Below are positions 24,001-27,000 of a stretch of DNA of 34,653 bases, in pieces. The first letter of the stretch is position 1. The number at the start of each line of letters is the position of its first letter. Source of the stretch: Candidatus Margulisiibacteriota bacterium (lineage in GTDB: Bacteria; Margulisbacteria; WOR-1; XYC2-FULL-46-14; WPAF01); the NCBI GenBank assembly GCA_041648295.1, contig JBAZPF010000003.1, positions 1 through 34,653 of the forward strand. Reading direction: 5' to 3'. Position numbers: made by a program.

Positions 24001-27000
24001 AAATGACCGTCGGGACTGAGCTAAGCGCGCATTATATACTAGGCGCGGGGCGGATTTGAACCGCCGCATAACTGTTTTGCAGACAGCTCCCTTACCACTT
24101 GGGTACCGCGCCGTATTGGTTAACTAGCGGGAGACGGGGTTCGAACCCGCGACCTTCTGCTTGGGAAGCAGAAGCTCTACCAGCTGAGCTACTCCCGCAC
24201 TTCGACTCGCTGCGCTCGCTCGATGCAAGCATGCGATCGTTAACAATTGTTAATTTTACACTAAAAATCCGGTCTTATCAATGCGATTGCTTGACTATCC
24301 CGGCCAATCTGCTAATATACAACCCCATGATGAAAAAGAAGATCAAATTGGCCGCAGCGATCCTGGCAATAATACTGCCATTTGCACTTTTTGGCATTGG
24401 GAATTGCTTGTCCCAGCTTCAATGTTCGTGCTGTCCCGATCAAAATGGCGCCTGCTGGGTCGACTCCGATCAGAACAACCTGATCGCGGGCCAATCGGAA
24501 AGGATCGATCTTGCCTATCCCCCGACAGTCTCAACCTCAGTCAAAGCTAAAACGATCCGTCAGGTTTACTTGCTTGAAACACTTGTCTTTAGGCCTTTAG
24601 GCTCATCCCTGCAATTTAAAATATCCCATCCCCAAAATGGCCCTCCCCTGGCCTGACCGTTCCTTCAAAAGATCCTAATTGTCCCTATTAAAAGGAGTAA
24701 ATTTGTATGAAAAATAATATTTTGGTCGCATTAGTGCTGTTTATTTTCTTGAGCGGAGTTGCTTCATTTGCATTAAATAAATCCTGCGCTTCTTCAAAAT
24801 GCAAAACCGCCGGATGCAAGGCAAAAGCACAAGCTTCATGCGTAAAGGCAAAATGCCCTGCCGGGAAGAATTGCGTTAAGAAATAGGAGGTTTAAACAGG
24901 CGGCGGGAGTTCTTTAAAGGGCTCCTGCCGTTTTTTATAACTTTCTGCCAAACGAAAAGCTGACCGATCGTTCGTTATTCATTTCATTGCTCTCAAAAAC
25001 ATTGTTCTTATAATCGGCAGAGGCTTTAAACACGTATTTCCCGGCAGCTGGAACAACATAATCAACCTGACCGGTATAGGAACCGCCGGGAGCAAGGGCC
25101 GGAGAAGAAACGTTCGCAATCTGCTTATTTGCGGATGATCCTATGCTTAAATTGGTAATAGATTTCCCGCTCATCACCTTACCCTGGTTTTTTACTTTAT
25201 AAATAATCGTTACCTTTTGGTCTTTCTTAATGTGCGATTGGTCAATCTTCAAATCAGTTATGACAAGATCAGGCGCCGGGCCGGCCGGGCGGCCGGATGG
25301 CTTAGTAGCCATGGCTAAAATGCCTCCTTGAACCATCGCCGTCAAAACAATTATAATCACTGCCGCGATTGTTTTTTTCATATCCCTCTCCCTTTAAGTG
25401 GTCTTTATTTCTTTCCGCATTTTGCGGGTAGCTTCTTTGCAGATGCGCGAGACCTGGGACTCCGACAATCCTATCTCATCGCCGATCTCCTTAAAGGTCT
25501 TGTCTTTTTTATAATAATTTTCAACCACTACTTTTTCTTTATCGGTAAGGATCCCAAGCGCGGAATCAACATGCAATAGATCGTCAACCTGGTCGGAAAC
25601 GACCGCTTCGCGGTTAAAGGCCATATAGACATAGGCCGCGGAATTGATCCATTCGTACATGCCGGAGATCTGGTCCATTTTTTTCCGGCGCAGGTAATCC
25701 TGCATGGACCCCTTGAGGCGCAGGCTGACAAAAGACCAGAGCTCGCCCCGGCGGGGATCCCAGTTCTTTAACGCGTCAACGAAAGCGATCTTCGCTTCGG
25801 AAGCAAGGTCGTCGGCTTCGGAGCTTTTAATGTGGCGGGGAAGGGTCGAGACATACCAATTAACCGTGTTCTGTATCTGTTTATTATATTTTTCAAGCAC
25901 ATGGTCGGAATGTTTGAGGAATTCTTCGCGCATTATCCTTACTATTCTGTCTTCTATTTCAGCTTTGGATACCATCATGCTCCCCAATGTTTGGCGTCGC
26001 GGCGCACGGCCTCAACGAATTTTTCTTCATAATCTTCGGGGTTGGCAAAATGCTTGGCAAATTCTTTTGCCTTCTGTTTGGTGTAATCCCAAAAACGGCG
26101 CAGGATCGGAGGGACGTTCGCGGGGATCGGCGCTCCCAGGCCGCTTATGGAGCCAGAGGTCCTTGCGCCGGTGCTTGATATTCTTTTGTCTGCCACATTG
26201 GGATTCTATCAAAATTATCAAGGAAAGGCAAGGAGGGAAGGCCTATAGGTTGTTAGGTGGTTAGGAATTAGGCCTATAGGCCAAACAACCTAAAGGCCTA
26301 ACTACCTATAGGCTATAGGCCCACAGGCCTTTTTGTGCTAAAATATCACAAATGATCCAGGAAAGAGCCAGAGTAATTGACCATAAAAAACTGACGGCAA
26401 ACTATTTCCTCCTTACGCTTTCTTCCGCTCATATTTCAAAAAATGCCCAGCCGGGACAGTTCGTTAACGTTAAAGTCTCTGATGATATTGCTCCCTTATT
26501 AAGGCGTCCGATCTCCATCCACCAGACCGATCCTAAAAACAATAACTTTAAACTTCTTTATGAAGTGGTCGGACCGGGGACAAAAAAGCTTTCGGAAGTA
26601 AAACCGGGACAGGAAATAAGCGTTCTTGGCCCGCTCGGGACCGGGTTCAGGATAGAGAAAAACATCGCGATCCTTATTGCCGGCGGCATGGGCATCGCCC
26701 CTCTTTGCTTCCTTATCCGGGAAGCGTCAAAGCAGGCAAAAGAACTGCACGTATTCATCGGCGCAAAGACAAAAGACTTGGTTCTGTGCGAAGATGGGAT
26801 TAAAGCGCTGGGCGCAAAAGTTTACGTTACAACCGAAGACGGTTCAAAAGGGAAAAAGGGCCTCCCGACCGCGGCGCTTGATGAATTTTTAAAAAACAAT
26901 ATGCCGGCAACGATCTACGCCTGCGGGCCCAAAGCCATGCTGATAGCGGTCTCGCTCCTTTCTGAAAAGTATAAAGTACCCTGCCAGATCTCAATGGAAA

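What a model noticed while it worked through the whole genome (the two positions that open the first line are those of the whole stretch)
25394..25978. Two FliA paralogs and two disjoint promoter classes: machine first, cargo second
The sigma28-like promoters split into two non-overlapping -35 classes, GCAAGT (hook-length ruler, needle/translocator operon, giant substrates) and TGAAAT (about 90 cargo genes), and the genome has two FliA-type sigmas with different -35 recognition helices: g00119 here and g01147 inside the flg operon (C94:1872-2600). Each sigma likely reads one class, forming a two-step timer that builds the secretion machine and then fills it with cargo. A duplicated, specificity-split sigma28 cascade for one export machine is undescribed.
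Evidence so far: At 16-nt spacing before CGATA: TGAAAT 62, GCAAGT 9, ACAAGT 2, and the hybrids GCAAAT, TGAAGT, TCAAGT, GGAAAT 0. Both classes exceed reversed controls in all 64 other WOR-1 genomes. g00119 matches in 62 of 64 other WOR-1 and 132 of 146 phylum genomes, and follows flhA in 4 of 9 order relatives. g01147 hits 33 of 35 genomes, with orthologs between flgI and flgB. Region 4.2 reads SESQVSRI versus SRPKVCRI. The same target types recur in 8 relatives.
(Added by a program. Inside this text positions count along the whole contig: contig position 1 is position 1 of the stretch shown here. "Call 12" and the like, gene names such as g00115 and contig names such as C1 are that model's own, and its searches are not shown. 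The text may have been shortened before it was handed on; [...] marks where a part breaks off. The agent that wrote the report below was given it as the finding of a first reader that could run no searches.)

Follow-up and report, generated by a model that had tools for sequence, protein, structure and literature searches.

The report
Two flagellar-type sigmas, one export machine
Uncultured Margulisbacteria carry two diverged flagellar-type sigma factors and two separate promoter types for one flagellum-derived, filament-less export machine; each sigma likely reads one type, probably side by side rather than as a strict machine-then-cargo timer.

Summary
The counts reproduce exactly (TGAAAT 62, GCAAGT 9, ACAAGT 2, four hybrids 0). 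The classes also differ in -10 tolerance, which favours two sigmas over one sigma plus an activator. A natural deletion gives the likely assignment. Three genomes of one genus lack g01147 (sigma B) from its slot in an intact flg operon. They keep g00119 (sigma A) and GCAAGT promoters, and their TGAAAT sites fall to 2-3 per genome. So A likely reads GCAAGT and B reads TGAAAT.

The timer is not supported as stated. Both sigma genes have sigma70-like promoters, FlgM is absent from 65 of 65 WOR-1 genomes, the TGAAAT class also heads rpoD and rpoN, and a TGAAAT promoter precedes sigma A in 8 of 56 loci.

New here: a 73-aa ORF coupled to sigma A is predicted to bind it (0.70 vs 0.00 control). The ORF in the same position in other classes occurs fused to sigma A.

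Promoters are inferred, not mapped. The scan noted the TGAAAT motif before on other DNA, without identifying its sigma. Verdict: a new variant of paralogous-sigma partitioning.

The parts
25394..25978 (-). Sigma A (g00119): FliA-derived sigma of 194 aa with sigma2 and sigma4 domains and a much shortened sigma3; likely reader of the GCAAGT class
   Evidence: Pfam r2+r4; TIGR02479 74.6 bits vs cut-off 189.6; aligns to solved FliA only in sigma2 and sigma4; model with a low-confidence linker at residues 108-138
25445..25465 (-). Region 4.2 recognition helix SESQVSR; S-E-S and the final R are invariant in 46 of 46 orthologs
   Evidence: aligned to SESRVSQ of FliA in PDB 9wsm and 6pmi
25975..26196 (-). 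upA: 73-aa ORF overlapping the sigma A start; predicted binding partner of sigma A
   Evidence: a small ORF precedes sigma A in 52 of 53 loci; the non-WOR-1 counterpart is fused to sigma A in 10 library representatives and G050; complex score 0.70 vs best control 0.00
26203..26231 (-). Sigma70-like promoter (TTGCCT-17-TAGAAT with TG extension) in front of upA-sigma A
   Evidence: similar site directly before upA in most WOR-1 loci; consensus recalled, not mapped
10316..10342 (+). GCAAGT-N16-CGATA (G-class) promoter heading the fliK-flhA operon
   Evidence: G-type with relaxed -10 in 6 of 8 WOR-1 relatives read by eye and in 1 of 11 non-WOR-1 operons
10302..10310 (+). Extended -10 (TGnTATAAT) sigma70-like site just upstream of the G-class promoter
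10359..19199 (+). fliK-flgD-flgE(short, 267 aa)-fliM-fliN-fliO-like-fliP-fliQ-fliR-flhB-flhA operon (ruler, hook, C-ring, export gate); upA-sigma A is its last unit in most relatives but has moved away in this genome
   Evidence: Pfam; gene order in relatives
32515..32541 (+). TGAAAT-N16-CGATA (T-class) promoter
32562..33647 (+). T-class target of about 361 aa with no Pfam family; candidate export substrate

Best explanation
Margulisbacteria keep two diverged FliA-type sigma factors for one flagellum-derived export machine, and sigma A (this gene) likely reads the GCAAGT-N16-CGAYW promoters while sigma B (g01147) likely reads the TGAAAY-N16-HGAWA promoters, as two branches that are probably switched on in parallel from housekeeping promoters and cross-wired, not run as a strict timer. 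Shown: two linked promoter classes; both sigmas tied by gene order to the two halves of the machine; no flagellin in 64 of 65 and no FlgM in 65 of 65 WOR-1 genomes. Inferred: sigma70 transcribes the rod/ring operon (with sigma B inside) and upA-sigma A. Sigma A then drives a small core set: the ruler-hook-export-gate operon, a second FliK-like gene with an FlhB-like fragment, the conserved C66 operon and some giant proteins. Sigma B drives a large, fast-changing set of about 60-90 genes, mostly unknown proteins with secretion-like N-termini, plus rpoD, rpoN and other regulators. Specificity likely comes from the 4.2 helix, because the positions that differ (E/R, S/P, Q/K) lie next to the residues that read the upstream -35 bases in solved sigma28. 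Any timing would have to be post-translational; the candidate is upA, which is predicted to clamp the first helix of sigma A.
For: (1) The -35 and -10 boxes vary together. In G000 at spacer 16, TGAAAY pairs with CGATA 66, AGATA 15, CGAAA 10, TGATA 9 and CGATT 0; GCAAGN pairs with CGATA 19 and CGATT 11. Over 64 WOR-1 genomes the excess CGATT/CGATA ratio is 0.025 for T and 0.18 for G (the patterns differ slightly in degeneracy). (2) Only four sigma70-family genes were found in G000. The ECF has its own GGAACT-16-GGTCT site upstream and RpoD is canonical. (3) Natural deletion. In G046, G047 and G048, flgI to flgB is 284-308 nt against about 1050 nt in B-bearing relatives, with no B hit by HMM there or genome-wide. 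Sigma A is intact after flhA. G-type promoters persist at the K2 operon (G046; G048 with a 17-nt spacer) and at three other orthologous genes. Strict T sites number 2, 3 and 2, and one each in G046 and G048 is fliN coding sequence. In G046 the r2 search finds only RpoD and A. (4) Outside WOR-1, T excess has a median of 1.2 per Mb in 10 genomes where B is absent or lacks K/R/N at helix position 2, against 5.9 in 31 others (p=5e-4); G excess is the same in both groups (1.1 vs 1.25). (5) G-class promoters mark the C66 operon in 18 of 20 loci, including two non-WOR-1 genomes, and K2 in 6 of 22 non-WOR-1 loci against 6 of 503 background. (6) Flagellated families carry a third, canonical FliA (flhA-flhF-flhG-fliA, SESRISQ-type helix) with TAAAGTTT/CCGATA promoters near flagellin, so three helices go with three -35 types. 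(7) In P. aeruginosa sigma28, S224 and Q228 contact positions -36 to -34 (PMC12784957, section 19), the positions where the classes differ. (8) Sigma70-like sites lie before flgF in G000 and 8 of 9 relatives with that gap examined, and before upA.
Against: No promoter is mapped and no sigma-promoter pair is tested. The deletion is one event in one genus (genomes 77-89% complete). The helix covariation is post hoc and among kin. Five genomes with an intact B helix also have T near background (G022, G045, G016, G077, G059), so low T alone does not prove loss of B. A T-class promoter sits just upstream of sigma A in 8 of 56 loci and a G-class one in 0, which would also fit A activating itself through T. 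G142 (95% complete) has 107 T sites but no B; flgI and flgC are missing too, so the operon is probably unassembled. Outside WOR-1 the strict G class is near background in many genomes that have an unchanged A helix (for example G026 0 vs 3 and G030 0 vs 0). In G000 a G-class promoter at K2 could still read through into sigma B.
Confidence: 0.6

Rival explanations
1. Same assignment, but a strict timer: sigma A is made first, builds the machine and turns on sigma B, which then makes the cargo.
For: In G000 upA-sigma A has a sigma70-like promoter, and a G-class promoter heads K2-flhX upstream of the flgF..sigma B genes. The same G site occurs in 6 of 7 WOR-1 relatives with K2 in the locus. Of 56 T first genes scanned, 35 have no Pfam family, and T targets have secretion-like N-termini.
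Against: flgF..sigma B has its own sigma70-like promoter in G000 and 8 of 9 relatives, and is cut off from K2 in G130, G133 and G122. T promoters feed back on sigma A in 8 of 56 loci. No FlgM in 65 of 65 WOR-1 genomes. G targets include a kinase, a PP2C phosphatase and giant proteins with the same N-terminal bias. T targets include rpoD and rpoN.
Confidence: 0.2
2. Swapped assignment: each sigma activates itself, so A reads TGAAAT and B reads GCAAGT.
For: T-class sites lie just upstream of sigma A in 8 of 56 loci, and a G-class site heads the operon upstream of sigma B in several WOR-1 genomes.
Against: The three genomes that lost B keep G promoters at orthologous genes and have no T class. 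Two genomes with an altered B helix (G052, G057) keep a G-type site at K2 and have few T sites.
Confidence: 0.1
3. One sigma reads both classes, and a cofactor (an activator or upA) shifts its -35 preference; the other sigma has another job.
For: Both classes share CGATA and the 16-nt spacing. upA is a predicted partner of sigma A.
Against: The -10 tolerance differs with the class. T tracks sigma B and G does not. upA's predicted contacts are on the first helix of sigma A, not on sigma4. No third promoter class before CGATA was seen in G000.
Confidence: 0.07
4. The ECF sigma reads the TGAAAT class, whose geometry resembles SigW/SigM-type promoters (recalled).
For: TGAAAT-N16-CG resembles the recalled TGAAAC-N16-CGTA consensus; G000 has one ECF.
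Against: The ECF gene has a different site (GGAACT-16-GGTCT) just upstream and no TGAAAT/CGATA promoter. The T class tracks sigma B.
Confidence: 0.02

Closest known systems
Sigma28 (FliA/SigD) with FlgM in flagellar hierarchies
   Same: FliA/WhiG models are the best specific NCBIfam hits for both sigmas; the -10 core CGATA and the -35 spacing match; both genes sit in flagellar-type operons.
   Different: There are two sigmas for one machine, and the -35 boxes are TGAAAT and GCAAGT instead of TAAAG. There is no GC extended -10 and no FlgM, and no flagellin in 64 of 65 WOR-1 genomes. One class heads the hook and export-gate operon, whereas canonical FliA serves late genes (PMC4598750, passages). 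Sigma A lacks most of sigma3.
Clostridial sigma-I paralogues for the cellulosome (PMC10575876; abstract and Introduction read)
   Same: Several paralogues serve one machine, share a -10 motif and differ in the upstream part of the -35 element.
   Different: Sigma-I lacks sigma4 and each paralogue has a membrane anti-sigma that senses a substrate. Here there are two FliA-derived sigmas, no such anti-sigma was seen, and the -10 tolerance also differs.
Bacillus sporulation sigmas F/G and E/K, and pro-sigma extensions (PMC4598750, passages)
   Same: Related group 3 sigmas divide one developmental programme; the fused form of upA resembles an N-terminal extension on a sigma.
   Different: A strict order is shown there; here the wiring is parallel and cross-linked, and no order is shown.
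Two FliA-type sigmas for two flagellar systems (Vibrio polar/lateral; recalled, not checked)
   Same: More than one sigma28-like gene per genome; flagellated Margulisbacteria likewise add a third FliA for their true flagellum.
   Different: There each sigma serves its own machine; here A and B are tied to the two halves of a single machine.
Two-subunit sigma SigO-RsoA of Bacillus subtilis (search listing only; details recalled)
   Same: A sigma with a small co-transcribed partner.
   Different: No similarity was tested; upA's role (activator, structural piece or inhibitor) is unknown.

Membership tests
FliA/WhiG sigma28 (TIGR02479) | Score above the curated cut-off of 189.6 bits | tested here: not met
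   A 74.6 bits, B 143.9 bits; still the best specific family for both
FliA/WhiG sigma28 (TIGR02479) | sigma2, sigma3 and sigma4 domains | tested here: inconclusive
   B aligns end to end with FliA/WhiG. A aligns only in sigma2 and sigma4 and is about 45 aa shorter
FliA/WhiG sigma28 (TIGR02479) | Recognition helix SESRVSQ with Gln at P. aeruginosa position 228 | tested here: not met
   Arg at that position in 46 of 46 A and 50 of 50 B sequences
FliA/WhiG sigma28 (TIGR02479) | Promoters TAAAG / GCCGATAA with GC extended -10 | tested here: not met
   No conserved GC before CGATA in either class; the -35 boxes differ
FliA-FlgM checkpoint | FlgM anti-sigma present | tested here: not met
   PF04316 in 0 of 65 WOR-1 and 19 of 146 phylum genomes; a diverged FlgM below detection is not excluded
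Sigma cascade (sequential timer) | Later sigma depends on the earlier one for its transcription | tested here: inconclusive
   G site at K2 in 6 of 7 WOR-1 relatives, but a sigma70-like site before flgF in 8 of 9 and T sites before A in 8 of 56 loci
Sigma cascade (sequential timer) | Temporal order of expression | not testable with these tools
   needs time-resolved expression data
Motile flagellum | Flagellin and stator | tested here: not met
   Flagellin_N in 1 of 65 WOR-1 genomes, weak; MotA/ExbB family in 7 of 65, none in G000
Injectisome needle/translocon (C66 operon) | SctF-like needle or translocator fold | tested here: inconclusive
   No Pfam family; the 102-aa protein models as a helical hairpin with best Z 7.7 among generic bundles, hook and rod proteins at Z 6.5-7.2
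Paralogues by one duplication | A and B are sister clades | tested here: inconclusive
   Each is one clade (SH-aLRT 93 and 97), but A is on a long branch and the join is open in a quick tree; the profiles share a region-3 motif

The most novel reading that the evidence does not exclude
A whole phylum runs a flagellum-derived injection machine with an FlgM-free pair of specificity-split sigma28 descendants. One of them is a two-piece sigma whose small subunit (free in most lineages, fused in some) acts as the assembly or secretion checkpoint that times the core-machine branch against the cargo and housekeeping branch.
Probability: 0.2. Interest if true: 0.85.

Novelty: new variant of a known kind. 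Interest (0 to 1): 0.66.

Why it matters
Sigma28 is the textbook single late flagellar sigma, held in check by FlgM. Here two descendants with re-written recognition helices appear to divide one machine's genes across a phylum that has no cultured members among these genomes. This gives a sequence key for sorting the unknown genes of that phylum into core machine and likely cargo. It also gives a natural three-way series (canonical, A, B) of helix-to-promoter pairs that can be tested in vitro, and a new candidate sigma partner protein. The same pairs could serve as orthogonal sigma-promoter parts.

Tried and rejected
ECF as reader of the T class: rejected. G142, G091, G129, G114, G088, G030 and G004 as counter-examples (T sites without B): none is clean, because flgI or flgC is missing too or the contig ends at the slot. 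G019 looked like a B loss but holds B with runs of N. De novo look for a variant T hexamer in f39 and in G022, G045 and G052 with a loose pattern: no recurring hexamer stood out by eye (116 of 116 rows for f39; 150 of 229 for the others). Autoregulatory G site just upstream of sigma A: 0 of 56 loci. Atlas search for upA: no hit at 0.9 or above. An HMM of WOR-1 upA did not detect the non-WOR-1 ORFs, nor the reverse, so their link rests on position only. Fold search for the C66 102-aa protein gave no clear family. The careful tree did not finish; the quick tree was used (WOR-1 rows were thinned to about one in three). No RNA holder was listed for the operon, so no reads were laid. I wrote an EM mixture routine but did not run it. 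A literature guess at the identity of family f39 led nowhere, and I leave it unnamed. Literature searches that found no description of these sigmas or promoters: (listings only; open-licence library; supplements not examined). PMC6349859 has 0 main-text occurrences of 'flagell', 'secretion' or 'sigma'.
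Full report
OBSERVATION. The window is contig C3 of a 1.32-Mb, 87% complete WOR-1 (Margulisbacteria) genome. Window 25394-25978 (-) encodes a sigma factor, here called sigma A. The genome has four sigma70-family genes: RpoD, one ECF, sigma A and sigma B at C94:1872-2600. It also has RpoN. Chance expectations are 1.8, 0.5 and 0.3. Of these, 58 of 62 TGAAAT and 7 of 9 GCAAGT sites lie outside long ORFs. 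Choosing sites without the discriminating bases still gives two peaks, 33 and 10 of 109, with hybrids at control level. Both classes beat reversed controls in 64 of 64 other WOR-1 genomes.

TWO READERS, NOT ONE. The -10 box varies with the -35 box. In G000 the T class accepts AGATA (15), CGAAA (10) and TGATA (9) but not CGATT (0); the G class accepts CGATT (11). Across 64 WOR-1 genomes the excess CGATT/CGATA ratio is 0.025 for T and 0.18 for G. The linkage is therefore strong but graded, not absolute, and the patterns compared differ slightly in degeneracy. An activator that shifts -35 contacts would not be expected to change -10 tolerance (inference). The ECF has its own, different upstream site, and RpoD has canonical regions 2.4 and 4.2 (consensus recalled). 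That leaves A and B.

BOTH SIGMAS BELONG TO ONE MACHINE. Sigma A is found in 136 of 146 phylum genomes and sigma B in 128 of 146. B sits between flgI and flgB in 48 of 48 mapped B loci of relatives. A follows flhA in 17 of 20 non-WOR-1 loci, in 3 of 3 f39 loci and in 9 of 10 long WOR-1 loci. In G000 and its family A has moved away. Flagellin is found in 15 of 146 genomes, only 1 of them among the 65 WOR-1. The MotA/ExbB family is found in 7 of 65 and FlgM in 0 of 65. The flagellated families have a second flagellar gene set with a third, canonical FliA and TAAAGTTT/CCGATA-type promoters. A and B each form one clade, separate from canonical FliA; their sisterhood is unresolved in a quick tree. 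The A profile has 21 clusters at E<1e-30 and then drops to ordinary FliA-like hits. Neither sigma passes the FliA/WhiG cut-off.

WHICH READS WHICH. Three genomes of one genus (G046, G047, G048; family f39) have flgI, a small rod-cap-like ORF and flgB in a row. The gap is 284-308 nt against about 1050 nt in relatives, and no B is found by HMM in the locus or the genome. They keep sigma A with an unchanged helix. They keep G-type promoters at the head of the K2-flg operon (G046; G048 with a 17-nt spacer) and before three other genes shared between them. Their strict T counts are 2, 3 and 2 against controls of 1, 0 and 0; in G046 and G048 one hit each is fliN coding sequence. Among 41 non-WOR-1 genomes whose B status I could read, the 10 with B absent or with a changed second helix residue have a median T excess of 1.2 per Mb, against 5.9 for the other 31; the G excess does not differ. 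This test is post hoc and among kin, and five genomes with an intact helix also have few T sites. The structure of P. aeruginosa sigma28 places S224 and Q228 on bases -36 to -34 (PMC12784957; sections 19 and 21 read, plus passages). In register, canonical CTAAAG, T-class TGAAAT and G-class GCAAGT differ mainly there. The helices read SESRVSQ, S[RK][SP]KV[CS]R and SESQVSR. Against this assignment: a T promoter lies just upstream of sigma A in 8 of 56 loci and a G promoter in none. That fits B activating A, but it also fits A activating itself through T. G142 has 107 T sites and no B, though flgI and flgC are missing as well.

WHAT EACH CLASS HEADS. G class: the fliK-flhA operon (G000; 6 of 8 WOR-1 relatives with a relaxed -10, read by eye; 1 of 11 non-WOR-1 operons). 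Also a second FliK-like gene, K2 (6 of 7 WOR-1 relatives; 6 of 22 others against 6 of 503 background), and the C66 operon (18 of 20 loci, often with two or three sites). It also heads a kinase, a PP2C phosphatase and proteins of 1094, 1815 and 4434 aa. The C66 proteins have no Pfam family and the 102-aa one models as a generic helical hairpin, so 'needle/translocator' stays a guess. T class: I scanned 56 first genes of the 62 sites (4 had no ORF, 1 was a duplicate, and rpoD was identified separately). Of these, 35 have no Pfam family. The rest include three Ser/Thr kinases, two histidine kinases, a LacI regulator, RpoN and a PAPS-reductase domain, and rpoD itself has a T site. With a score fixed beforehand from recalled type III signal composition, the first 25 residues of 69 T and 16 G targets both differ from 210 background genes (medians +4, +4 and -2; p=3e-14 and 9e-5). 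So both classes likely contain export substrates, and T also contains regulators.

THE TIMER. A sigma70-like promoter lies directly before flgF, and so upstream of B, in G000 and 8 of 9 relatives. One lies before upA-sigma A in G000 and most WOR-1 loci, and one just upstream of the fliK G site. In G130, G133 and G122 the flgF..B operon is separated from K2 and its G promoter. Outside WOR-1, 11 of 22 K2 loci have a sigma70-like site. Neither sigma therefore needs the other to be transcribed, and the cross-links run both ways. G000 alone could work as A then B by read-through, but that is not the conserved design. With no FlgM, any order would have to come from another protein.

A NEW PART. A small ORF precedes sigma A in 52 of 53 loci; in the window it is 25975-26196 and overlaps the sigma start. 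The non-WOR-1 version is fused to sigma A as an N-terminal domain in 10 library representatives and in G050 (HMM E 2e-13 to 9e-4). The WOR-1 and non-WOR-1 versions are linked by position only. The complex model supports binding of upA to the first helices of sigma A: score 0.70, best of three controls 0.00, runs agreeing in at least 80% of contacts, partner pLDDT at least 71. This mark was reached by 116 of 157 solved and 2 of 215 mismatched pairs, and those counts hold only roughly here. It is a prediction; whether upA activates, stabilises or inhibits is open. Its disordered Ser/Arg-rich N-terminus in WOR-1 would suit an exported regulator, but the fused forms could not work that way without cleavage (inference).

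COMPARISON AND NOVELTY. Paralogous sigmas that share a -10 box and split at the -35 box for one machine are known for clostridial sigma-I (PMC10575876; abstract and Introduction read). Ordered group 3 cascades are known from sporulation (PMC4598750, passages). I found no description of these sigmas or promoters in nine searches of the open library (listings only). The main genome paper on the lineage does not mention flagella, secretion or sigma factors in its main text (PMC6349859, term search). PMC6784892 (passages) adds nothing on this. Supplements were not examined, and subscription papers are outside the library. Earlier scan notes saw the T motif in two other genomes without naming its sigma. 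Verdict: the two-sigma, two-class partition is real as far as sequence can show and now has a likely assignment; the timer is unproven and partly contradicted. New variant of a known kind; interest 0.66.

Noticed in passing
window 25975-26196 (-): upA, a conserved small ORF coupled to sigma A; the positional counterpart in other classes is fused to sigma A in several lineages; predicted to bind sigma A's first helix.
   Followed up: yes
L022, L040, L293 and others, between flhA and upA: A conserved ORF of about 80-135 aa lies between flhA and upA in many genomes, in some behind a T-class promoter; it is missing from this slot in G000.
   Followed up: partly
G000 T-class targets, e.g. L082, L086, L089, L124: Several T targets carry a lipoprotein-like signal (hydrophobic stretch plus Cys), most of them behind an extra N-terminal extension: 8 of 69 by a loose pattern, Cys at 22-66 against mostly 14-22 in background. 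This might mean export into another bacterium followed by that cell's own lipoprotein route; untested.
   Followed up: partly
G000 C5:20313 and C122:1304: T-class promoters directly before rpoD and rpoN.
   Followed up: no
L190, L222, L224 (G050, G052, G057), upstream of K2: A G-type promoter appears embedded in the 3' end of the upstream coding sequence, using the codons TCG ATA.
   Followed up: partly
L262-L267, L271, L275, L279, L280 (families f44-f47): A second, complete flagellar gene set with flagellin, FlgM and a canonical FliA coexists with the filament-less machine.
   Followed up: partly
L268-L270, L273, L274 (f41-f43): A canonical FliA/WhiG-like sigma next to secD/secF, with weak FlgM hits in several of these genomes but no flagellin.
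   Followed up: no
G000 C13:3252-3702: Two tandem Com-like zinc-ribbon genes, each behind its own T-class promoter.
   Followed up: no
G000 C7:4176-17480: 4434-aa protein with a SecA DEAD-like domain behind a G-class promoter.
   Followed up: no
window 26250-26340 and 23680-24040: Short degenerate repeats upstream of the upA promoter, and repeat-like insertions among tRNA-like sequences.
   Followed up: no
window 3913-8890 (-): Type I-like restriction-modification pair: fused methylase-specificity gene and a restriction helicase.
   Followed up: no
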